Shown piece after piece: positions 8,922-30,380 of a stretch of 64,000 nucleotides of DNA (the first letter of the stretch is position 1; each line of letters begins with the position of its first letter). Under the pieces are notes generated by a model. It saw only the letters and a program-made list of their open reading frames with translations, ran no database searches and was not told the origin of the DNA. Both the position numbers and the translations under genes were made by a program. Origin of the DNA: Eledone cirrhosa. Its lineage: Eukaryota. Location: the NCBI GenBank assembly GCA_964016885.1, contig OZ024743.1, positions 255,378,001 to 255,442,000 on the forward strand. Reading direction: 5' to 3'.

Positions 8922-11900
8922 TAAACGGAAAAAATGAAACGATATTTCATTTCCCACTCTTAGTACGGCTGTTACTTAAATATAAGTATGTACACGTACA
9001 TACATATATGTATACCGACGTACAGTAGTATGTATATATATATATATACATACATGCACACATATATATATGCACGTATGGATTCACCGAACATTTATTA
9101 TAATGCTCGGTGTGTTTGTAAACAAACATCCCGTATTAAGCCGTAGTGTCTAGCAACCACCGTTGCTCGTTTGTTCAACACTGACAAAGGAACGCTGTAC
9201 TAGTTTCAAGCTTGTTAGCTATCGTCAGCAACGTATACCTTCCTGCCAGATTGTTGAACGTATATACTTACCTTATGCATATTAACGGCTGAGAAGCCCA
9301 ATATGCATATCGAGTGGGTTAATCGGCCGGGTGCACCGAAAACGATAAACGGAAAAAATGAAACGATATTTCATTTCCCACTCTTAGTACGGCTGTTACT
9401 TAAATATAAGTATGTACACGTACATACATATATGTATACCGACGTACAGTAGTATGTATATATATATATATACATACATGCACACATATATATATGCACG
9501 TATGGATTCTCCGAACATTTATTATAATGCTCGGTGTGTTTGTAAACAAACATCCCGTATTAAGCCGTAGTGTCTAGCAACCACCGTTGCTCGTTTGTTC
9601 AACACTGACAAAGGAACGCTGTACTAGTTTCAAGCTTGTTAGCTATCGTCAGCAACGTATACCTTCCTGCCAGATTGTTGAACGTATATACTTACCTTAT
9701 GCATATTAACGGCTGAGAAGCCCAATATGCATATCGAGTGGGTTAATCGGCCGGGTGCACCGAAAACGATAAACGGAAAAAATGAAACGATATTTCATTT
9801 CCCACTCTTAGTACGGCTGTTACTTAAATATAAGTATGTACACGTACATACATATATGTATACCGACGTACAGTAGTATGTATATATATATATATACATA
9901 CATGCACACATATATATATGCACGTATGGATTCACCGAACATTTATTATAATGCTCGGTGTGTTTGTAAACAAACATCCCGTATTAAGCCGTAGTGTCTA
10001 GCAACCACCGTTGCTCGTTTGTTCAACACTGACAAAGGAACGCTGTACTAGTTTCAAGCTTGTTAGCTATCGTCAGCAACGTATACCTTCCTGCCAGATT
10101 GTTGAACGTATATACTTACCTTATGCATATTAACGGCTGAGAAGCCCAATATGCATATCGAGTGGGTTAATCGGCCGGGTGCACCGAAAACGATAAACGG
10201 AAAAAATGAAACGATATTTCATTTCCCACTCTTAGTACGGCTGTTACTTAAATATAAGTATGTACACGTACATACATATATGTATACCGACGTACAGTAG
10301 TATGTATATATATATATATACATACATGCACACATATATATATGCACGTATGGATTCACCGAACATTTATTATAATGCTCGGTGTGTTTGTAAACAAACA
10401 TCCCGTATTAAGCCGTAGTGTCTAGCAACCACCGTTGCTCGTTTGTTCAACACTGACAAAGGAACGCTGTACTAGTTTCAAGCTTGTTAGCTATCGTCAG
10501 CAACGTATACCTTCCTGCCAGATTGTTGAACGTATATACTTACCTTATGCATATTAACGGCTGAGAAGCCCAATATGCATATCGAGTGGGTTAATCGGCC
10601 GGGTGCACCGAAAACGATAAACGGAAAAAATGAAACGATATTTCATTTCCCACTCTTAGTACGGCTGTTACTTAAATATAAGTATGTACACGTACATACA
10701 TATATGTATACCGACGTACAGTAGTATGTATATATATATATATACATACATGCACACATATATATATGCACGTATGGATTCACCGAACATTTATTATAAT
10801 GCTCGGTGTGTTTGTAAACAAACATCCCGTATTAAGCCGTAGTGTCTAGCAACCACCGTTGCTCGTTTGTTCAACACTGACAAAGGAACGCTGTACTAGT
10901 TTCAAGCTTGTTAGCTATCGTCAGCAACGTATACCTTCCTGCCAGATTGTTGAACGTATATACTTACCTTATGCATATTAACGGCTGAGAAGCCCAATAT
11001 GCATATCGAGTGGGTTAATCGGCCGGGTGCACCGAAAACGATAAACGGAAAAAATGAAACGATATTTCATTTCCCACTCTTAGTACGGCTGTTACTTAAA
11101 TATAAGTATGTACACGTACATACATATATGTATACCGACGTACAGTAGTATGTATATATATATATATACATACATGCACACATATATATATGCACGTATG
11201 GATTCACCGAACATTTATTATAATGCTCGGTGTGTTTGTAAACAAACATCCCGTATTAAGCCGTAGTGTCTAGCAACCACCGTTGCTCGTTTGTTCAACA
11301 CTGACAAAGGAACGCTGTACTAGTTTCAAGCTTGTTAGCTATCGTCAGCAACGTATACCTTCCTGCCAGATTGTTGAACGTATATACTTACCTTATGCAT
11401 ATTAACGGCTGAGAAGCCCAATATGCATATCGAGTGGGTTAATCGGCCGGGTGCACCGAAAACGATAAACGGAAAAAATGAAACGATATTTCATTTCCCA
11501 CTCTTAGTACGGCTGTTACTTAAATATAAGTATGTACACGTACATACATATATGTATACCGACGTACAGTAGTATGTATATATATATATATACATACATG
11601 CACACATATATATATGCACGTATGGATTCACCGAACATTTATTATAATGCTCGGTGTGTTTGTAAACAAACATCCCGTATTAAGCCGTAGTGTCTAGCAA
11701 CCACCGTTGCTCGTTTGTTCAACACTGACAAAGGAACGCTGTACTAGTTTCAAGCTTGTTAGCTATCGTCAGCAACGTATACCTTCCTGCCAGATTGTTG
11801 AACGTATATACTTACCTTATGCATATTAACGGCTGAGAAGCCCAATATGCATATCGAGTGGGTTAATCGGCCGGGTGCACCGAAAACGATAAACGGAAAA

Positions 11901-14275
11901 AATGAAACGATATTTCATTTCCCACTCTTAGTACGGCTGTTACTTAAATATAAGTATGTACACGTACATACATATATGTATACCGACGTACAGTAGTATG
12001 TATATATATATATATACATACATGCACACATATATATATGCACGTATGGATTCACCGAACATTTATTATAATGCTCGGTGTGTTTGTAAACAAACATCCC
12101 GTATTAAGCCGTAGTGTCTAGCAACCACCGTTGCTCGTTTGTTCAACACTGACAAAGGAACGCTGTACTAGTTTCAAGCTTGTTAGCTATCGTCAGCAAC
12201 GTATACCTTCCTGCCAGATTGTTGAACGTATATACTTACCTTATGCATATTAACGGCTGAGAAGCCCAATATGCATATCGAGTGGGTTAATCGGCCGGGT
12301 GCACCGAAAACGATAAACGGAAAAAATGAAACGATATTTCATTTCCCACTCTTAGTACGGCTGTTACTTAAATATAAGTATGTACACGTACATACATATA
12401 TGTATACCGACGTACAGTAGTATGTATATATATATATATACATACATGCACACATATATATATGCACGTATGGATTCACCGAACATTTATTATAATGCTC
12501 GGTGTGTTTGTAAACAAACATCCCGTATTAAGCCGTAGTGTCTAGCAACCACCGTTGCTCGTTTGTTCAACACTGACAAAGGAACGCTGTACTAGTTTCA
12601 AGCTTGTTAGCTATCGTCAGCAACGTATACCTTCCTGCCAGATTGTTGAACGTATATACTTACCTTATGCATATTAACGGCTGAGAAGCCCAATATGCAT
12701 ATCGAGTGGGTTAATCGGCCGGGTGCACCGAAAACGATAAACGGAAAAAATGAAACGATATTTCATTTCCCACTCTTAGTACGGCTGTTACTTAAATATA
12801 AGTATGTACACGTACATACATATATGTATACCGACGTACAGTAGTATGTATATATATATATATACATACATGCACACATATATATATGCACGTATGGATT
12901 CACCGAACATTTATTATAATGCTCGGTGTGTTTGTAAACAAACATCCCGTATTAAGCCGTAGTGTCTAGCAACCACCGTTGCTCGTTTGTTCAACACTGA
13001 CAAAGGAACGCTGTACTAGTTTCAAGCTTGTTAGCTATCGTCAGCAACGTATACCTTCCTGCCAGATTGTTGAACGTATATACTTACCTTATGCATATTA
13101 ACGGCTGAGAAGCCCAATATGCATATCGAGTGGGTTAATCGGCCGGGTGCACCGAAAACGATAAACGGAAAAAATGAAACGATATTTCATTTCCCACTCT
13201 TAGTACGGCTGTTACTTAAATATAAGTATGTACACGTACATACATATATGTATACCGACGTACAGTAGTATGTATATATATATATATACATACATGCACA
13301 CATATATATATGCACGTATGGATTCACCGAACATTTATTATAATGCTCGGTGTGTTTGTAAACAAACATCCCGTATTAAGCCGTAGTGTCTAGCAACCAC
13401 CGTTGCTCGTTTGTTCAACACTGACAAAGGAACGCTGTACTAGTTTCAAGCTTGTTAGCTATCGTCAGCAACGTATACCTTCCTGCCAGATTGTTGAACG
13501 TATATACTTACCTTATGCATATTAATGGCTGAGAAGCCCAATATGCATATCGAGTGGGTTAATCGGCCGGGTGCACCGAAAACGATAAACGGAAAAAATG
13601 AAACGATATTTCATTTCCCACTCTTAGTACGGCTGTTACTTAAATATAAGTATGTACACGTACATACATATATGTATACCGACGTACAGTAGTATGTATA
13701 TATATATATATACATACATGCACACATATATATATGCACGTATGGATTCACCGAACATTTATTATAATGCTCGGTGTGTTTGTAAACAAACATCCCGTAT
13801 TAAGCCGTAGTGTCTAGCAACCACCGTTGCTCGTTTGTTCAACACTGACAAAGGAACGCTGTACTAGTTTCAAGCTTGTTAGCTATCGTCAGCAACGTAT
13901 ACCTTCCTGCCAGATTGTTGAACGTATATACTTACCTTATGCATATTAACGGCTGAGAAGCCCAATATGCATATCGAGTGGGTTAATCGGCCGGGTGCAC
14001 CGAAAACGATAAACGGAAAAAATGAAACGATATTTCATTTCCCACTCTTAGTACGGCTGTTACTTAAATATAAGTATGTACACGTACATACATATATGTA
14101 TACCGACGTACAGTAGTATGTATATATATATATATACATACATGCACACATATATATATGCACGTATGGATTCACCGAACATTTATTATAATGCTCGGTG
14201 TGTTTGTAAACAAACATCCCGTATTAAGCCGTAGTGTCTAGCAACCACCGTTGCTCGTTTGTTCAACACTGACAA
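8922..14275 (-). repeat. Tandem array of a 424-bp hammerhead-containing unit, left arm (~12.6 units; ribozyme sense on minus strand)
   Basis: Exact 424-bp period (ORF-track starts 8947, 9371 ... 14035). Only two substitutions seen (about 9510 and 13526). Confidence 0.98.
9173..9259 (-). ncRNA. Type I hammerhead ribozyme motif (representative; 12 intact minus-strand copies at 424-bp spacing to 13837)
   Basis: Reverse complement of the motif at 14662-14748; the core reads TCGTCAG at 9222-9228 on plus. Confidence 0.8.
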
Positions 14276-17061
14276 TAGCTAACAAGCTTGAAACTAGTAC
14301 AGCGTTCCTTTGTCAGTGTTGAACAAACGAGCAACGGTGGTTGCTAGACACTACGGCTTAATACGGGATGTTTGTTTACAAACACACCGAGCATTATAAT
14401 AAATGTTCGGTGAATCCATACGTGCATATATATATGTGTGCATGTATGTATATATATATATATACATACTACTGTACGTCGGTATACATATATGTATGTA
14501 CGTGTACATACTTATATTTAAGTAACAGCCGTACTAAGAGTGGGAAATGAAATATCGTTTCATTTTTTCCGTTTATCGTTTTCGGTGCACCCGGCCGATT
14601 AACCCACTCGATATGCATATTGGGCTTCTCAGCCGTTAATATGCATAAGGTAAGTATATACGTTCAACAATCTGGCAGGAAGGTATACGTTGCTGACGAT
14701 AGCTAACAAGCTTGAAACTAGTACAGCGTTCCTTTGTCAGTGTTGAACAAACGAGCAACGGTGGTTGCTAGACACTACGGCTTAATACGGGATGTTTGTT
14801 TACAAACACACCGAGCATTATAATAAATGTTCGGTGAATCCATACGTGCATATATATATGTGTGCATGTATGTATATATATATATATACATACTACTGTA
14901 CGTCGGTATACATATATGTATGTACGTGTACATACTTATATTTAAGTAACAGCCGTACTAAGAGTGGGAAATGAAATATCGTTTCATTTTTTCCGTTTAT
15001 CGTTTTCGGTGCACCCGGCCGATTAACCCACTCGATATGCATATTGGGCTTCTCAGCCGTTAATATGCATAAGGTAAGTATATACGTTCAACAATCTGGC
15101 AGGAAGGTATACGTTGCTGACGATAGCTAACAAGCTTGAAACTAGTACAGCGTTCCTTTGTCAGTGTTGAACAAACGAGCAACGGTGGTTGCTAGACACT
15201 ACGGCTTAATACGGGATGTTTGTTTACAAACACACCGAGCATTATAATAAATGTTCGGTGAATCCATACGTGCATATATATATGTGTGCATGTATGTATA
15301 TATATATATATACATACTACTGTACGTCGGTATACATATATGTATGTACGTGTACATACTTATATTTAAGTAACAGCCGTACTAAGAGTGGGAAATGAAA
15401 TATCGTTTCATTTTTTCCGTTTATCGTTTTCGGTGCACCCGGCCGATTAACCCACTCGATATGCATATTGGGCTTCTCAGCCGTTAATATGCATAAGGTA
15501 AGTATATACGTTCAACAATCTGGCAGGAAGGTATACGTTGCTGACGATAGCTAACAAGCTTGAAACTAGTACAGCGTTCCTTTGTCAGTGTTGAACAAAC
15601 GAGCAACGGTGGTTGCTAGACACTACGGCTTAATACGGGATGTTTGTTTACAAACACACCGAGCATTATAATAAATGTTCGGTGAATCCATACGTGCATA
15701 TATATATGTGTGCATGTATGTATATATATATATATACATACTACTGTACGTCGGTATACATATATGTATGTACGTGTACATACTTATATTTAAGTAACAG
15801 CCGTACTAAGAGTGGGAAATGAAATATCGTTTCATTTTTTCCGTTTATCGTTTTCGGTGCACCCGGCCGATTAACCCACTCGATATGCATATTGGGCTTC
15901 TCAGCCGTTAATATGCATAAGGTAAGTATATACGTTCAACAATCTGGCAGGAAGGTATACGTTGCTGACGATAGCTAACAAGCTTGAAACTAGTACAGCG
16001 TTCCTTTGTCAGTGTTGAACAAACGAGCAACGGTGGTTGCTAGACACTACGGCTTAATACGGGATGTTTGTTTACAAACACACCGAGCATTATAATAAAT
16101 GTTCGGTGAATCCATACGTGCATATATATATGTGTGCATGTATGTATATATATATATATACATACTACTGTACGTCGGTATACATATATGTATGTACGTG
16201 TACATACTTATATTTAAGTAACAGCCGTACTAAGAGTGGGAAATGAAATATCGTTTCATTTTTTCCGTTTATCGTTTTCGGTGCACCCGGCCGATTAACC
16301 CACTCGATATGCATATTGGGCTTCTCAGCCGTTAATATGCATAAGGTAAGTATATACGTTCAACAATCTGGCAGGAAGGTATACGTTGCTGACGATAGCT
16401 AACAAGCTTGAAACTAGTACAGCGTTCCTTTGTCAGTGTTGAACAAACGAGCAACGGTGGTTGCTAGACACTACGGCTTAATACGGGATGTTTGTTTACA
16501 AACACACCGAGCATTATAATAAATGTTCGGTGAATCCATACGTGCATATATATATGTGTGCATGTATGTATATATATATATATACATACTACTGTACGTC
16601 GGTATACATATATGTATGTACGTGTACATACTTATATTTAAGTAACAGCCGTACTAAGAGTGGGAAATGAAATATCGTTTCATTTTTTCCGTTTATCGTT
16701 TTCGGTGCACCCGGCCGATTAACCCACTCGATATGCATATTGGGCTTCTCAGCCGTTAATATGCATAAGGTAAGTATATACGTTCAACAATCTGGCAGGA
16801 AGGTATACGTTGCTGACGATAGCTAACAAGCTTGAAACTAGTACAGCGTTCCTTTGTCAGTGTTGAACAAACGAGCAACGGTGGTTGCTAGACACTACGG
16901 CTTAATACGGGATGTTTGTTTACAAACACACCGAGCATTATAATAAATGTTCGGTGAATCCATACGTGCATATATATATGTGTGCATGTATGTATATATA
17001 TATATATACATACTACTGTACGTCGGTATACATATATGTATGTACGTGTACATACTTATAT
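14276..17061 (+). repeat. Same 424-bp unit inverted, right arm (~6.6 units; ribozyme sense on plus strand)
   Basis: Reverse complement of the left arm with period 424 (14368, 14792 ... 16912); ends in a (TA)n tract. Confidence 0.98.
14662..14748 (+). ncRNA. Type I hammerhead ribozyme motif (representative; repeats every 424 bp, 6 intact plus-strand copies)
   Basis: ACGTTG-CTGACGA-T-AGCT-AACA-AGCT-T-GAAA-C-TA-GTA^CAGCGT. Stem I ACGUUG/CAGCGU is extended by AAGG/CCUU, CUGGCA/UGUCAG and GUUCAACA/UGUUGAAC. Stem III is the palindrome ACUAGU. Predicted cleavage after 14723. Confidence 0.8.
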
Positions 17062-20502: not shown

Positions 20503-22770
20503 GGGGAGAAGTATGTCCGAGATGGCAATGGTGCACTTGCCCTAACCAATGCCAAAAAGAAGACAGCATGAATGCATCATTATGAAAGACTGATGAATGA
20601 GGAGAGTGCATGGGAGGAAGCTAGTCTGCTACAAGTAGACCCAACAGAGGGACCAGCTGTACAACAGCACCCTAGTAAGTAAGTCAATTAAGGATGTGAA
20701 GACAGGTAAAGCAGCTATGCTATTTTGAATATATGCTGAGATGCTGAAAGTATTTGGGATGGTATTACACACCTTAAGCCTCCATATTGTAAACCAAGTA
20801 ATACAAAATGGTGCTATACCCAATGACTGGCAAACCAGCATCATCATCAACTGCTACAAATGCAAAGGTGATGCACTAGTCTGAAGAAAATACTGAGGCA
20901 TCAAATTGAGTGACTAGGGCATGAAAATTACAGAAAAAGTCATTGCACAACTGACTAGAGATCGAATGAACCAAGATTCAATACAATTTGGATTTGTGTG
21001 AGATAAAAGTAGCACTGATGCTGTCTTCTTTGTAATGCAACTACAGGAGAAGTATCTAGCTGAAAGTAAACCCCTCTACATGGCATTTGTTGTTCAGGAG
21101 AAAGCAATTGACAGCGTTCCCTGTTCCATAAGCTGATAGGTACTTAGGAAACTAGGGGTAGATGAGTGGCTTATGAAGACTGTGAAAGCCATGTAGAGAG
21201 GTGCAGTCAAGAAGATTAAAATTAATTATGACTGTAGTGAGGAGTTTAGCATGCAAGTGGGGGTTCATCAGGACTCTGTTTTTAGCACTCTCCTGTTTAT
21301 TATTATCCTCCAGAATGTAACAGAAGTGTTTAAAACACAATGCCCTTAGGAATTCCTGTATGCTGATTGTTTCATTTTCATATTTGAATCTATGGCAGAA
21401 CTAGAGAAAAAATTCTTGAGCTGAAAGCATAACCTGGAATAAAAGGTCTTAAAATTAACTTGGCAATGACCAAATTGTTAATATGTAGAAAGGAAAACAT
21501 GGCCTTGATACCTTGAGGGAAATAGTCCTGCTCAGTGTATAACAAAGAAGTGGGTAGAAATTCTATCCTTTGTCCCAAATTCAAACTATGGATACACAGG
21601 AAATGTAGTATTATCTCAGGCAGGCTAGCAAAGAACATAGGTGTTATATGCACAGGAGCAGCTCTATTAAATTCTTATAGGGCTCGATTTAAGCAGTTAA
21701 CAGCTTCTGTTACTTGGGTGACAAATTGGCAGTGAAGGTGGGTGTTCTGAAAGTACAGTAGCCAAAGTGACAATGCGGCAGAGAAAGTTCAGGGAGCTAC
21801 TACTGCTGCTAGCCAGAAAAGGTTTCTCCTTCAAAAAGAAGGACAAATTGTATGATGCGTGAACATGAAAACAATGCTGCATGGAATGAGACCTGGGTTC
21901 TGTGTGCAGAGCATCTATGAAGATTGAAAAGAAATGAAGCTTGCATGCTTTGATGGATGTGTAATAATTAATATACATGAATAGCAAAATATAAATGAAC
22001 TGAAAGAGAAACTGAGCAGAAGAGGGTTGGATTCAGTGTGCAGGAGATGGTGTGGATATTTGGTGTGTATGGAGGATGACAGCCATATAAAAAGATATAG
22101 GGCTTTCAAAGTTGATGGAAGCTATGGAGTAGGAAGACCTAGGAAAGCTTGGGATGATTTGATAAAAGATGACCTTATACAATTACACCTCTCAAAGGCA
22201 ACAACACAAGATCGAGATCTCTGGCATTATGCAGTACTGCTGACAAGCTGCCATCCATGTCCTGAGGATGAAGCAAACATCTAGAGATCACTAGCATGCA
22301 CCACTTCTCCCCACATCTATACACCTCCCAGGTTTTAACAGTTCACTCATCACCAGCTAAGTACTCCACCTTAGACCTACCTCTTCAATCCCCTCCTTCA
22401 TACAATCACCACACCTACTCCCAAACCACCAATTTCCACATCTGATACACCTCCTTGCCCAACCCATAGCTTCAAGCTTGGAAAGCTGGACATGCTACCC
22501 TTCAATGCTGCTGAAATGACTAAAAGCACACAGTCCCAAAAGCCCCTAGTTCACCATATAAAGTGATTGCATTGGTGACAATAAAAAACACACAGTTCAC
22601 CCTATAAATTGGTCATGTTGGTGATGCACCAAAAGCACCTGGTTCACCATATAAAAGGGTTGTGTTGGAGGCACAACAAAATCACCCAGTCCACCCTGTA
22701 AAGTGGTCATGTTGATGAGATGATAAAACGCATCCAGTACAACCTGTCAGTTGGTTGTTTTGATGCCATG
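20503..22770 (+). mobile_element. Degraded RTE LINE (many stops/frameshifts) with repeat-containing 3' UTR
   Basis: Collinear similarity to 1326-3150 ([42 protein letters not shown]); ~38-bp repeats at 22520-22770. Confidence 0.88.
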
Positions 22771-22981
22771 ATAAGAAGGATTACATGCTCTACGAAGGGG
22801 TGCTAAAAATCCTGGCTTTAAGGGTATTGTGAAAGGGTAGAGCTGTTGCATTTACAGGGAGATAAAACTGCTGGAATAAATGTGTGAATATGAGAATGAA
22901 ATATATTGAATAAAATCATATCTAACTGTTATTTCAGTTCCTGATTATTACTGGAATTCTATAAGAATCCAACATTCATAA

Positions 22982-23073
22982 TTTTCAACAAACAAAGAGA
23001 GTGCTAAGCTCTGAGGAATACCAACAGTATGAAACAGAGATCTGTCAGCTTATCTCTCTTTGTTTGTTGAAAA
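22982..23073 (+). ncRNA. Canonical type I hammerhead ribozyme, copy 1
   Basis: TAAGCT-CTGAGGA-ATAC-CAACA-GTAT-GAAA-CAG-AGAT-CTG-TC^AGCTTA, with a 20-bp stem I extension TTTTCAACAAACAAAGAGAG/CTCTCTTTGTTTGTTGAAAA. Cleavage predicted after 23046. Confidence 0.9.
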
Positions 23074-23299
23074 AAGAGGTAAGTGACATAGTCACTACTT
23101 TAAAACAATAGCATAAGGTCTTCAAAATGCTTTTAATTAAGCATACAGTGTATTACCAAATACACTATATACACATTCATATATACATCGCTATTTCAGA
23201 GCACCAATTCTAATTTTCAATTTTTGCTGGACTGCCAACCGCTCTGTATAATCAGTTGCTGATTATTACTAGAATTTTATAAGAATCCAACATTCATAA

Positions 23300-23390
23300 T
23301 TTTCAACAAACAAAGGAGTGATAAGCTCTGAGGAATACCAACAGTATGAAACAGAGATCTGTCAGCTTATCTCCCTTTGTTTGTTGAAAA
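23300..23390 (+). ncRNA. Canonical type I hammerhead ribozyme, copy 2
   Basis: Identical core (CTGAGGA at 23328, GTC at 23361-23363); stem I GATAAGCT/AGCTTATC plus a long extension. Confidence 0.9.
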
Positions 23391-23523
23391 AAGAAGTAAG
23401 TGTCATAGTCACTATATAAAACAATAGTGTAAGGTCTTCAAAATGCTTTTAATTAAGCATACAATGTATTACCAAATACACTATATATGCATTCATATAT
23501 ACATCGCTATTTCAGAGCACCAA

Positions 23524-23578
<55 letters not shown>

Positions 23579-23584
<6 letters not shown>

Positions 23585-26580
23585 TAATAAAAACAATGAA
23601 TAAAAACAAAGGACAAGTTCCTTATATTAAAAATTCATCATTTTACGATCGTTTCTAGGATATATATGTGTTGGTATGTATATCATATAGATTTATGTAA
23701 AAATTTTACAAACTATCAGAGGAAATATACATACCTTCACATATATATGCTGTCTTCAGAAATAATGATTATTTCTGATATACATACCAACACACATATA
23801 TATCCTAGAAACGATCGTAAAATGATGAATTTTTGAAGATAAGGAACTTGTTCTTTGTTTTTATTCATTGTTTTTATTAATTTATCTTGACTCTGTTTTC
23901 CTGTGATTTTCATCGAAACGTTTTTGAATGCATCTCCTCTTTTCATGATATTTGGATTACATTGAGTTCTTCATACGGATTGGACACTACCGTATATTTT
24001 TGGTAGATTTATCTACATATATATATATAATATGTATATTTATCTACATATTATATATATCTACATATATAATCGCGAGAAGAAACACCTGGAACAAAAA
24101 TTCCTATGTCTTTGCAAGAAACATCACCAGAACAACAATTCTTCACATTACAACAACAGAGACAGTGAAGAAACTACCACCACTTCAAACAATACCACCA
24201 CTCTCGTCACAGACTTCACAGGATCGCTATCATATGAAGAACTTAAACTCCTCAACCTTGGCCCAAATTTAAATTAACTCAGTGACTAGATGACAGGATG
24301 GAACTAAATCTTGAAGCCTGTTTTTGCTGAGCTGCCTACCCTTTCAAATGACTCTCAGTAATACACAACATTACTGATAACAACACTATTACTGCGATGA
24401 ACAGCACTAAATTTCCTATATACCACTTAGACAACCCATTCTCTCCACCGCCTATCAAACGAGAGCTTGACCTCAAACACTCCAGACTTAAGCAATCTAT
24501 TTTTAGCATATTACTGAAACATAAGAAGCTACTCCCTAACATCTCCAGGCAAGAACACCTCATTCTAAACAACATGCGGGAGAAGGACAAAGGGAAAGAA
24601 TTCTTCCTCATCTCGAGGGACACATACAACGACTTGGCATATGAGCACCTTAACAACAGTGAACTATATACAGACGTGACAGACATAGCTGCATCCCAGA
24701 TTGAAGATCACATCAACACCACCTGGATGGATATCTACAGATGAAGACAACTCCCCAACAAATATAAAAACAACCTCACCACCAGAAACAGCAGACTACC
24801 AACGTTCTACCACCTCACTAAAACCAACAAAACCGGTGTTACTCTACAGATTAGACCAATTGTCTCGAGTATAGAAGGACCCCTCTATATAATCTCCTGG
24901 TTCCTCTCCCAGATCCTCAAGCCTCTGCTTGCTACCTGGACATGTCAGCAGCTCTGAAGAAGTCATACAAAGACTACATCAACTACAACCTAACCAACTT
25001 AAACTCAACAGATATGCCTTTAGCTTCAAAGTTCTCTCCCTCTACACGACAGTACCGCTCATCCAGCAGTCAACCTAGTGACTGAGTGCATCATTTCATA
25101 CAACAGATACTGCTTCGACCTCACTCCACAAGACATACATCAGCTTCTATCTGTCATCGTAGAAAATACATATTTCACTTTCTACCACCACACATACAAA
25201 CAAACAACAGGCCTTCTAGCCATCACTTATATGAACCAATTGGAACATTGAGTGCTCAACACCTGCTGCTCCTGTGTTTTCTTCACCCGATACATAGATG
25301 ATATACTCATCCTCAGATCATCCTGTGAAAAGGCCAATATAATATCTACAGCATTTTCAAATACAGATAACAACATACGATTTACAACAGAACACCCCAA
25401 TGAAAATGATTCCTTGACTCTACTGGCCTTCCAACTTAGAATAACAGAAGAAGGTACTATATACACCAACTTCTATAGGAAATCTGCCAGCACAGACCTC
25501 TTTGTGTATTATAGATCAGCCCTTCCACTTGGTGCTAAATCCGGATACATAAGAAATGAACTTACACATATCCTGAATAATTGTAACAAGACAGAAGATC
25601 AGATCACTCACACTACACATTTCATAGATGTACTGAAGATGAACGGATACCCAACATCCACAATGGATCAATTTAAGAATCAAAGGCACTGCAGGTATAA
25701 GGCCTTCTCTAACACCGACTTCATGAAATTACCACATTTCAGTGAAAGCATAACCACAGCTATCCACAGAGCTATCCATAATGAAGGACTGGACATACAA
25801 TTAGCACATTGGGGCTCTTCACTGTGTGGATAGCTGTCTAAAAAGCAATCCAGAGACAACAACAATCAATGCTCGTTGACTAACTGCCCTATCCATGATA
25901 TAGGCATGTGCCAGTGGACACATGTGGTATACCGGATTGAATGCAACAAATGTAATGAGTTCTACATTGGTAGCACAACTCAAGTACTCCACACTCATAT
26001 TAAAGAACACCTCAACACACATGCATCCTCATTCAAAAAACACATTGACAAATCTAGAAACATCAACCAACATATTACCGTTACTATTAAAGCCAGTGAT
26101 AGAAATATGTTCAACCTAAGAATTAAGGAAGCCTTGCTCATACTCATATACCTGCAAATAAATAATAGATTAGAACTGAGCACACAGTACTTGACATAAA
26201 AAGACACTCCCACAGGCACACAAACTAAACATCTCATACAAAAGAGAAAATTGATTTCGCGAAATACTATATTGGCAATTGACATCATTTACATGGAAAG
26301 CGAAGTAACCATCAAAAAACGCTTCAAAATGACTTAGAAAAAACTTAAATCAAAATCAAAATTTAATCCCAAAGAGAGGAAATTGGAACATTATAGAATG
26401 AAAGTTCATTAAACCCAGAAGAAAGGACTTTTATGTCCCGAAATGTTGGACAAATAGAAGAACAATAACAACAACAAAAAAACAAAAAACAAATATTACC
26501 AGGTAAATTACTTTACTTTTCATTACCTCATCTTACAGTCCATTTTGCATTGTTTAGCCTTCTATCTCTTTCAACGTTTT
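23579..26580 (+). mobile_element. Decayed Penelope-like retroelement with inverted 5' repeat
   Basis: RT and GIY-YIG remnants; ~107-bp inverted repeat 23579-23685/23776-23885; decayed hammerhead-like motif at 26415-26450; both ends in (TA)n. Confidence 0.85.
24050..26199 (+). pseudogene. Penelope RT + GIY-YIG endonuclease, fragmented
   Basis: LLNLGP, RLPTFYHL, IRPIVSS, TRYIDDIL, IRFTTE, FYRK and NGYP (RT/thumb); VVYRIECNKCNEFYIGST..IKEH and LRIKEALLI (GIY-YIG). Confidence 0.9.
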
Positions 26581-27120: not shown

Positions 27121-27454
27121 ATATATACACACACACACACACATGCTAGAGCAGAGTATATTAGATGTAAGGAAAATATCCACAATTTATACACACACAC
27201 ACATATATATATGTATATATATAATTACATATATTCCCTTGTTTAACCCTTTTGTTGCATATTTCTAAATAATCATGAAAGATTTAGTAGTATAACCAAC
27301 ATTCTCCTTAATAAGTTAATGTTTTAAACATAACTTAAATAGGTTCTTAATTAAATTATGCAAGTTTGAAGATAAATATAAACATTGTAACCCTTTTCCT
27401 TCCATCTTACTAACAAAAGATATTGCTAATGTTTACATATTTTTGAAAATAATT

Positions 27455-27641
27455 GTTTCTACTATTGGCACAAGGCCAGCAATTACCCAGTACATTACTG
27501 GTACTTTATTTTATCGACCCCGTAAGGATGAAAGGCAAAGTTAACCTTTGGCGGGATTTGAACTCAGAATGGCAAGGGCTGTAACTCCATGAGTCAAAGC
27601 ATGGCGTCCGACCCTCTACCGATACTGCCAATTCAACGCCC
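27455..27641 (-). mobile_element. Second SINE family (Meta-domain-like), minus copy
   Basis: Reverse complement of the 43981-44172 element. Confidence 0.8.
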
Positions 27642-27921
27642 TTTTTGAAAATAATATAACTAATTTTAACATTATTAACCTGGTATTCGGAGCCTAACAT
27701 AACAAATTTTTGTACATAAATTATGATGGAAATTTTGTAAATAAATAAACATATTTTAAAACAGTTTTAAAATATGTTTATTTATCTACAAAATTTCCAT
27801 CATAATTTATGTAAAAAAACTTTCTTATATAGACAACTGTGAATATAACTTTCTTCTTAATAGGTTATTGTTTTAAACATAACTTTAAAAGGTTGTATAA
27901 AGAACATTATTACAATTACAT

Positions 27922-28112
27922 AAGGGCGGTGGATTGGCAGTATCGGTAGAGGGTCGGACGCCATGTTTTGACGCATAGAGTTACGGCCCTTGCCATTCTG
28001 AGTTCAAATCCTGAGGTTAACTTTGCCTTTCATCCTTATGGGGTCGATAAAATAAAGCACCAGTAATACACTGGGTAATTGCTGGCATTGTGCCAAAAGT
28101 AGAGACAATTAT
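27922..28112 (+). mobile_element. Second SINE family (Meta-domain-like), plus copy
   Basis: GGGCGGTGGATTGGCAGTATCGGTAGA..GAGTTCAAATCC..GCCTTTCATCCTTATGGGGTCGATAAAATAAAG. Confidence 0.82.
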
Positions 28113-28387
28113 TACAAATACATAAATAATATCACAAATTGCTCACAATTCTTTCAGAATAACATTACAAACACAATGTTGCTGATAAACACAAATACAA
28201 ACTCATACAACAAACACAACCAACCATTGCCAGGAACCTCACAAAAACAATACACCAAAATACTTGACCAGAACAAGAGAAAGAAAAGAAGAGTGAAAAA
28301 AAAGAAAAAAGAAAAAAGGAAGAAGTAAAACCGAAAACGACCACCAATTTACCACCAAATGCGACAATCAGCCTTACATCACAAGGG

Positions 28388-29319: not shown

Positions 29320-30380
29320 GCTCAGGTGCAATAAGTGGCAAGTGCCCACAGGATATTAGCTCCTTCTATTGCCCAGATGGTTCTATAGAAATAGTGGACA
29401 CCTTCCATTACCTGGGTGACAAAATCAGCAGTGGTGGAGGGTGCTCTGAAAGTACAGTAGCTAGAGTCAGAACGGGATGGAAAAAGTTCAGAGAGCTTAT
29501 ACCACTATTGGTCACTAAAGGTTTCTCTCTAACAATGAAAGGCAGATTGTATGATGCCTGCATACGAACAACAATGTTACATGGCAGTGAGACTCGGGCA
29601 TTGTGTACAGAGAATCTGCACAGACTGGAGAGGAACGAAGCATCCAAGCTCCATTGGATGTGTAATAGTAATATACGCGAACAGCAAAGCATCAATGAAC
29701 TAAGTGAGAAATTAGGAATAAGAGGGATCAGATGCTGTTTACTCGAGAAAAGACTACGTTGGTATGGTCACGTGATGCGCATGAAAGACGACAGTTGTAT
29801 AAAAAAGTGCAGGGCGATCAAAATTGATAGAAGTTATGGAGTAGGTAGACCCAGAAAAACCTGGGACGATTTGATAAATTCTGACCTTACACACTTACAC
29901 CTGACTAATACAATGTCACTGGACCGAGATCTTTGGCGCTACACAGTAATATAGAAGACCTACCTTGCGTATGTACAAAGCGAAACCTACAGTCAGTAGG
30001 CACCTCTTAATCAAATATACACCCCATCCCACTATCCCTACTCCACCACCCCCACTCCCAACAACATCACCCTTTCTCTGTAAAGTTATGTTGGTACCAC
30101 AACATCCAGTCCAAATAAATGCAGTCGTGTGGTGTCACAACAAAAAAAAAAACACACAATCCACGCTGTAATGTGGCCATGTAGGTAACACGGTAAAAAC
30201 CTCCCAGTCCACACTCTAGACGTGGTTGGTGTTAGGAAGGGCATCCAGCTGTAGAAAACCTGCCAGACAGTCCTATATGAGCGATATATGATCACTCGAC
30301 CAATCTTCCCTCAAGTAGGACAAATTCCCGTCTATACCCATGCTAGTGTGGAAGATAGACATTAAACGATGATGATGATG
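29320..30380 (+). mobile_element. 5'-truncated RTE LINE with 3' UTR and (GAT)n tail
   Basis: ORF 29394-29954 [21 protein letters not shown]; UTR contains AGGAAGGGCATCCAGCTGTAGAAA. Confidence 0.92.

What the first reader, a model, noticed from the sequence alone, without database searches (positions are those of the whole stretch)
22934..23530. Second hammerhead family: two canonical ribozymes delimiting a 317-nt monomer
Two tandem copies have identical perfect cores (CUGAGGA, AUAC/CAACA/GUAU, GAAA, ACAG/AGAU/CUGU, GUC^) and a ~20-bp stem I extension, while the flanks have diverged. Cleavage at 23046 and 23363 would release a 317-nt RNA, the typical dimeric retrozyme layout. It lies ~50 bp upstream of a Penelope element across a (TA)n tract, but I see no identity with that element's 3' end.
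Basis: partly seen in the sequence, partly recalled or inferred. Interest (0 to 1): 0.78.

Follow-up and report, generated by a model that had tools for sequence, protein, structure and literature searches.

The report
Penelope-copied ribozyme repeat (retrozyme) family
This is one copy of a several-thousand-copy, protein-free 317-base repeat carrying a predicted self-cutting hammerhead RNA, and its insertion scars show it was likely pasted around the genome by borrowed Penelope-type jumping-gene enzymes: a new member of a known kind.

Summary
The two type I hammerheads are real: identical cores at 23011-23046 and 23328-23363, 317 nt apart, with stems that covary across subfamilies. The flanks have not diverged specially (95% identical). 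The element 50 bp downstream is not the Penelope but an unrelated 437-bp repeat.

The unit has no ORF and belongs to a family of thousands of copies. In 140 sampled loci, 92 are head-to-head two-armed insertions. 3' ends cluster at two sites 26 nt apart and run into (TA)n. In 54 of 58 scorable two-armed copies one arm ends at each site. These are Penelope-like element (PLE) hallmarks, also seen in this genome's autonomous PLE. No copy is the pLTR of an ORF; one is fused directly to a PLE arm. Two-ribozyme arms are rare (4 of 140 loci).

5' ends pile up just downstream of the cleavage site, from ribozyme-cut templates or stem stalling. Cleavage, circularisation and expression are untested.

Verdict: a non-LTR retrozyme, likely moved by PLE enzymes; new member of a known kind with unusually clear mobilisation footprints. 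The scan earlier saw a look-alike in another genome and judged it a PLE tail; that reading was tested here and not supported.

The parts
22934..23530 (+). whole insertion: single arm, 1.88 units (unit positions 205-317, 1-317, 1-168), 5'-truncated, long 3' end
22982..23010 (+). 5' strand of extended stem I, hammerhead 1 (includes the UGC bulge)
23011..23046 (+). hammerhead 1 core with stems II and III; predicted cleavage after C23046
   Evidence: covariation
23047..23073 (+). 3' strand of stem I, hammerhead 1; family 5' ends pile up in this zone (unit 1-30)
23047..23363 (+). predicted 317-nt monomer between cleavage sites; 32% GC; no ORF over 48 codons; z = -5.5
23079..23084 (+). splice-donor-like GTAAGT about 33 nt after the cleavage site, a position like that in PLE pLTRs of this genome; not kept in the most distant sister family; tentative
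23107..23195 (+). three-hairpin domain just upstream of the 3' ends (unit 1); likely protein-binding element (inferred)
   Evidence: 27 predicted pairs, 4 with compensatory changes
23300..23390 (+). hammerhead 2 with stem I; core 23328-23363, predicted cleavage after C23363; stem I carries a 1-nt deletion and a minority C>A change in the bulge
23423..23511 (+). three-hairpin domain, unit 2
23505..23530 (+). optional 26-nt 'tail' between the short (unit 142) and long (unit 168) family 3' ends; this copy uses the long end
23531..23580 (.). (TA)n tract at the 3' junction, the inferred target
23581..24017 (.). separate 437-bp repeat family with an internal inverted repeat; neighbour, not part of the element
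24070..26580 (+). broken Penelope-like element (RT region, GIY-YIG) with its own decayed minimal hammerhead near 26416-26447; neighbour, no sequence match to the retrozyme

Best explanation
The stretch is a 1.9-unit copy of an ORF-less 317-nt hammerhead repeat with thousands of dispersed copies, likely a non-LTR retrozyme that is reverse-transcribed into new sites by the reverse transcriptase and GIY-YIG endonuclease of an autonomous Penelope-like element. Shown: hammerhead fold conserved by compensatory changes; no ORF; two fixed 3' ends; (TA)n junctions; head-to-head arms; one long and one short end per insertion; one retrozyme arm fused to a PLE arm. Inferred: the PLE protein binds the three-hairpin domain, cuts both strands of AT-rich DNA, and starts cDNA internally at unit positions 142 and 168, one site per broken end. 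The two cDNAs grow inward, stop early and are joined at their truncated ends by a few bases of microhomology. Internal starts need no free RNA 3' end, so a circular monomer could serve as template. Predicted, untested: transcripts of dimers like this one self-cleave to a 317-nt monomer that a host ligase circularises. This copy is old (its units differ by about 5%); whether it is transcribed is unknown.
For: Family size: 114 exact 42-nt cores, 1102 matches to a generalised core pattern, 2351 exact tail 23-mers, each with 0 control matches. Covariation: 12 of 34 pairs change on both sides, 0 of 500 shuffles reach it; by eye 88 of the 100 cores listed keep both variable inner stem II pairs, in 7 recurrent variants. 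Architecture of 140 loci: 92 head-to-head, 45 single-arm, 3 complex, 0 tail-to-tail. Of 239 arms 90 end at the short and 100 at the long site, and 64 of 90 and 79 of 100 run into TA repeats, against 7 of 49 other ends. Long+short pairing in 54 of 58 (p = 1.6e-12). The same pairing holds in 4 of 4 two-ended copies of the genome's young autonomous PLE. Inverted pLTRs, a one-sided tail and (TA)n bias are described for PLEs (passages of PMC3846280, PMC8557442), and two internal RT starts making the tail in PMC11167929 (parts 1-2 read). L108 joins a retrozyme arm directly to a PLE arm, both ending on (TA)n. The two arms share a haplotype in 30 of 34 loci, about 42% expected.
Against: No autonomous partner was identified: none of the PLE families in 104 sampled PLE loci shares sequence with the unit, and a structure model over 93 sources hit only the family and two distant short relatives. 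The chimera with a PLE is a single case and could be two adjacent events. Rfam finds no hammerhead. Successive passes within one arm share no more variants overall than matched controls (14.5% vs 12.2 +/- 1.9%), so a single circular template is not demonstrated, although the haplotype test agrees in 20 of 23. Tandem arrays, the defining layout in the papers, are the minority here. In the 2026 preprint only 1 of 9 predicted dimers cleaved in vitro.
Confidence: 0.85

Rival explanations
1. The unit is the pLTR of an autonomous Penelope-like family that was not sampled; the copies are ordinary 5'-truncated PLE ends and the dimer is a partial tandem.
For: All insertion hallmarks are those of PLEs. 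Hammerhead, donor-like site and tail lie in PLE-like order. PLE sampling covered 134 loci of roughly 10,000 candidates. An earlier scan note (e1-7908855) reached this verdict for a look-alike in another genome.
Against: 62 of 239 arms extend more than one unit and always read into the previous unit, never an ORF. Only 9 of 140 loci have any PLE protein hit and only L108 abuts, in opposite orientation. The 45 single-arm 5' flanks share no abutting sequence. No frame over 48 codons in the dimer. An ancestral origin from a pLTR remains possible.
Confidence: 0.08
2. The family is a SINE-like passenger of some other non-LTR retrotransposon, and the hammerhead is incidental.
For: 5' truncation and microsatellite junctions also occur in LINE-driven insertions (own knowledge). 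No partner was matched by sequence.
Against: No poly(A) or tRNA head. LINE twin-priming inverts an upstream RNA segment (recalled), whereas here both arms carry their own 3' end with strict long+short pairing. The ribozyme fold is kept by compensatory changes.
Confidence: 0.04
3. The dimer at this locus arose by local DNA duplication of a one-ribozyme insertion (a nascent satellite) and has no RNA-level meaning.
For: Most copies hold one ribozyme per arm (121 of 140 loci); the 2026 preprint proposes local amplification for arrays.
Against: The two repeats (205-317 plus 1-168) are separated by unit positions 169-204, present only once; duplicating a 281-bp arm cannot supply them. Dozens of other arms run collinearly through the same path.
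Confidence: 0.03

Closest known systems
Metazoan non-LTR retrozymes (Cervera and de la Pena 2020, PMC7229834, parts 2-4 read: coral, mussel 350-390 nt, axolotl 330/350 nt)
   Same: Type I hammerhead in a short, low-GC, ORF-less head-to-tail unit within 170-400 nt; thousands of copies; coexists with PLEs; sister subfamilies have a U-U mismatch at the base of stem II like axolotl HHR_Amex2.
   Different: New sequence family. Mostly dispersed, truncated, two-armed inverted insertions rather than arrays. Stem I is very long (26 bp). Cleavage and circular RNA were shown there and are untested here.
Vertebrate retrozymes as PLE derivatives (Li, Clavereau, Pollet, bioRxiv 10.64898/2026.07.22.740005, parts 1-3 of 5 read)
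   Same: Proposes that retrozymes are non-autonomous PLE derivatives; calls a tandem with two complete ribozymes an 'active' retrozyme, which this locus is.
   Different: Their evidence is co-occurrence and pLTR homology in Xenopus; the main text has no 'tail' or 'cleavage site' and no inverted-arm analysis (supplements closed). Here the evidence is insertion footprints, and no homologous pLTR was found.
Endonuclease-positive Penelope-like elements (PMC3846280, PMC8557442 passages; Poseidon PAc biochemistry PMC11167929)
   Same: Head-to-head inverted arms, tail on one end only, AT-rich or (TA)n targets, two internal RT starts, hammerhead upstream of the starts.
   Different: No RT or endonuclease gene. 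Full stem III and long stem I instead of the minimal PLE ribozyme. Tail 26-31 nt against about 40 nt in this genome's young PLE.
Non-autonomous Chlamys elements such as MRC1 (PMC8557442 passage)
   Same: ORF-less, head-to-tail, PLE-dependent.
   Different: Those match their autonomous partner at the 3' end and belong to a clade reported to lack canonical hammerheads.

Membership tests
non-LTR retrozyme | type I hammerhead with intact core and stems | tested here: met
   Rfam models did not detect it
non-LTR retrozyme | head-to-tail unit of about 170-400 nt with at least two ribozymes in tandem | tested here: met
   317 nt, two cores; 7-unit array at L120; rare in the family, 4 of 140 loci
non-LTR retrozyme | no protein-coding capacity; GC below 50% | tested here: met
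   longest stop-free frame 48 codons; GC 0.32
non-LTR retrozyme | no LTR, primer-binding site or polypurine tract | tested here: inconclusive
   no LTR-internal-LTR layout in 140 loci; PBS and PPT were not searched for
non-LTR retrozyme | target-site duplication longer than 4 bp when present | tested here: inconclusive
   flanks are mostly (TA)n, so a duplication cannot be delimited; none evident at the window copy
non-LTR retrozyme | self-cleavage in vitro | not testable with these tools
   needs a transcription assay
non-LTR retrozyme | expressed as linear and circular monomer RNA | not testable with these tools
   no run on record as RNA was available
autonomous Penelope-like element (pLTR of one) | RT plus GIY-YIG ORF flanked by this repeat | tested here: not met
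   0 of 140 loci in that arrangement; no match in 104 PLE loci
PLE-type insertion (works like) | head-to-head inverted truncated arms | tested here: met
   92 of 140 loci, none in the opposite orientation
PLE-type insertion (works like) | optional 3' tail on one end only | tested here: met
   54 of 58; control 4 of 4 in the autonomous PLE
PLE-type insertion (works like) | AT-rich or (TA)n target | tested here: met
   143 of 190 canonical ends vs 7 of 49 others
PLE-type insertion (works like) | shared cis element with an identified autonomous partner | tested here: inconclusive
   no sequence or structure match; one direct chimera, L108
plant LTR retrozyme | type III hammerhead in LTRs | tested here: not met
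   stem I is the open stem: type I

The most novel reading that the evidence does not exclude
The genome records the retrozyme life cycle. Ribozyme-cut RNAs, whose 5' end is the cleavage site, were real templates in vivo; a PLE enzyme complex starts one cDNA at each of two fixed internal sites and can even join arms copied from two different RNAs. The excess of 5' ends just after the cleavage site (34 of 104 arms at the first junction, 12 of 15 at the second) would then be fossil evidence of hammerhead cleavage during transposition, which was not seen for the one PLE studied in vitro, and a census of chimeric arms would name the partner enzyme.
Probability: 0.35. Interest if true: 0.68.

Novelty: new member of a known kind. 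Interest (0 to 1): 0.45.

Why it matters
That PLEs mobilise animal retrozymes has rested on co-occurrence and pLTR homology in the papers read here. This family shows the PLE insertion scars themselves in an ORF-less ribozyme repeat, at high copy number, with an internal control in the same genome. It makes the idea directly testable: the predicted RT start sites (unit 142 and 168), a conserved three-hairpin binding domain and intact PLE ORFs from the same genome are all in hand. The single locus alone is ordinary; the value lies in the family-wide pattern.

Tried and rejected
Rfam: nothing at gathering score in the window; only chance miRNA-type hits at E up to 10. Sequencing runs: no RNA holder listed, which says nothing about expression. 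Runs X1, X4, X5, X8 (one on record as DNA, three unlabelled) hold the family; X1 and X8 also show the long 3' end running into TA, and inverted joints. Link to the neighbouring Penelope: no homology, and another family lies between. Partner search: RT-protein search, GIY-YIG family search, 40 more PLE loci, blastn and nhmmer, pLTR inspection and a covariance model found no PLE carrying this unit; two weak model hits near one PLE family proved to lie beyond its 3' end. A search with the sister family unit returned nothing, uninformative since the query's own locus was missed. The pattern was one position short and was redone. A stop at exactly one turn of a circle was looked for and not seen (unit 143-168: 0.81 ends per 100 nt vs 0.55 before and 1.06 after). 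A systematic difference between first and second units, expected from one master dimer, was not found apart from a site at the TA junction. Three further retrozyme copies near PLE loci (L329, L336, L340) are neighbours, not 5'-5' chimeras. A short ATG frame at the tail of older subfamilies is not kept in the sister family and resembled no PLE N-terminus by eye. The prokaryotic promoter scan is irrelevant to this genome. The host species was not determined; a recalled resemblance of its repeats to cephalopods prompted, which listed no paper on such a family.

Full report
Observation. The window holds two identical 36-nt hammerhead cores at 23011-23046 and 23328-23363. Stem I is the open stem, so they are type I. 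Each region folds far better than shuffles (z -6.6 and -7.2), and the active fold is within 0.7 kcal/mol of the minimum. Stem III is nearly self-complementary, so a double-hammerhead fold is also possible. The repeat covers 22934-23530, 1.9 units. Rfam detects nothing. Beyond the (TA)n lies a different 437-bp family; the Penelope remnant begins near 24070, has a GIY-YIG hit and its own decayed minimal ribozyme.

Family. The genome is 3.0 Gb; the species was not determined. The monomer gives 2898 first-look candidates. Exact motifs give 114 cores, 136 mid-unit matches and 2351 tail matches; a generalised core gives 1102. Scaling suggests roughly 6,500 loci (crude, sample biased to young copies). 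Copies differ 3.5% from the family majority. Older subfamilies exist. Across 8 hand-picked ribozymes 12 of 34 pairs show compensatory change and 0 of 500 shuffles reach that; the sequences are related and the structure came from the window copy, so this is support, not a probability. By eye, 88 of the 100 cores listed keep both variable inner pairs of stem II, in 7 recurrent variants. A three-hairpin domain at unit 61-149 has 4 compensatory pairs of 27, and distant relatives of it turn up elsewhere.

Sample. I took 89 loci anchored on the exact core and 70 anchored at unit 88-120, drawn from the first 100 listed matches of each search, and dropped 19 duplicates, leaving 140. The window copy and the 30 best-hit loci are not among them.

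Insertion anatomy. 92 loci are two arms head to head with both 3' ends outward, 45 are single arms, 3 are complex, none is tail to tail. Of 239 arms, 90 end at unit 138-144 and 100 at 164-180; 143 of these 190 run into TA repeats, against 7 of 49 other ends. Among the 58 two-armed loci with both ends canonical, 54 pair one long with one short end (p = 1.6e-12); the other 34 have a non-canonical end and were not scored. 48 of 92 arm junctions overlap by 1-10 nt. The genome's young autonomous PLE (860-aa ORF with RT and GIY-YIG) shows the same pairing in 4 of 4 two-ended copies. Inverted pLTRs, a tail at one end and (TA)n bias are known PLE features (passages, PMC3846280 and PMC8557442). PMC11167929 (parts 1-2 of 4) shows that a PLE protein cuts and extends both strands and starts at two internal RNA sites that define the tail. 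The two arms share the 109/111 haplotype in 30 of 34 loci, about 42% expected, and share more variants than controls (19% vs 8.6%). That fits one RNA or one subfamily per event; gene conversion between arms is not excluded.

Not a pLTR. 62 of 239 arms run more than one unit and always read into the previous unit. Nine of 140 loci have any PLE protein hit and only L108 abuts. There a retrozyme arm (long end) joins with no intervening DNA to an oppositely oriented PLE arm (short end), both ending on (TA)n. L071 similarly joins an arm to a relative of the 437-bp family. None of the PLE families in 104 sampled loci shares sequence with the unit, and a covariance model found no partner in 93 sources. 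About 10,000 PLE candidates exist, so sampling is incomplete. Two-ribozyme arms occur in 4 of 140 loci; a 7-unit array exists at L120.

5' ends. In 195 collinear arms, ends fall in unit 1-30 at 1.5 per 100 nt against 0.53 elsewhere (p = 2e-8); 34 of 104 arms stop there at the first junction and 12 of 15 at the second (Fisher p = 0.001). Only 2 ends fall in the 30 nt just past the junction. Against a clean run-off reading: 24 of the 46 ends lie at 11-20, just before three G-C pairs of stem I, and 5 of those scored at 1-5 actually match 4-18 nt further upstream. Run-off from cut RNA followed by trimming and stalling in the stem both fit. No stop at one full turn was seen, and passes within an arm share no significant excess of variants, so circular versus linear template is unresolved.

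Mechanism. Shown: conserved ribozyme fold, no ORF, PLE-type scars. Inferred: PLE RT-EN binds the hairpin domain, opens (TA)n DNA, primes once at each start site, and the truncated cDNAs are joined. Predicted: dimers such as this one give a self-cleaved 317-nt monomer that can circularise, as shown for coral, mussel and axolotl retrozymes (PMC7229834 parts 2-4). No RNA data were available.

Novelty. Non-LTR retrozymes and their proposed PLE dependence are in print (PMC7229834; bioRxiv 10.64898/2026.07.22.740005, parts 1-3 of 5 read, supplements closed and possibly relevant; PMC8969392 passage). Six paper searches listed no description of this family or of inverted-arm and tail statistics for a retrozyme; most subscription papers and repeat databases were not searched. 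Verdict: new member of a known kind, interest 0.45, mostly for the family-wide footprints.

Noticed in passing
window 8922-17061: Very young two-armed array of a different 424-nt hammerhead unit: 12.6 copies on the minus strand and 6.6 on the plus, units 0-1 differences apart, (TA)n on both sides, the two 3' ends at different unit positions. The left arm starts about 12 nt after the predicted cleavage site. A stronger candidate for rolling-circle copying than the finding itself; no similarity to the 317-nt unit.
   Followed up: partly
window 23581-24017: 437-bp family, 3067 first-look candidates, with variable internal inversion junctions and TA/CA-run flanks; looks like another two-armed PLE-dependent family; no clear hammerhead seen.
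   Followed up: partly
L108:1326-2706: Chimeric insertion: retrozyme arm joined 5'-to-5' to a PLE GIY-YIG plus pLTR arm; that PLE family has 2447 first-look candidates, best copies 86-92% identical.
   Followed up: yes
L118:1-1981: Sister family in a near-identical 310-bp tandem with an inverted arm; same 3' domain (77%) but a minimal hammerhead with a palindromic stem III.
   Followed up: partly
L201:5139-7721: Intact young PLE, 860-aa ORF, 3127-bp tandem period, many near-identical copies; minimal hammerhead in the pLTR, start codon inside the ~40-nt tail.
   Followed up: partly
L257:249-500 and L210:508-617: Distant short elements sharing the three-hairpin 3' domain and ending on (TA)n; L257 is two-armed.
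   Followed up: partly
L246:3200-3330; L179:860-980; L192:3040-3140: Further unrelated hammerhead-like motifs in short repeats next to TA runs; the genome seems to hold many such families.
   Followed up: no
window 22536-22728: Four degenerate 47-bp direct repeats upstream of the element.
   Followed up: no
window 27448-28113: Large palindrome with arms about 93% complementary; possibly another two-armed insertion.
   Followed up: no
window 21723-22236 and 29422-29948: Two decayed copies (71-74% alike) of one repeat, the second overlapping a 211-aa stop-free frame.
   Followed up: no
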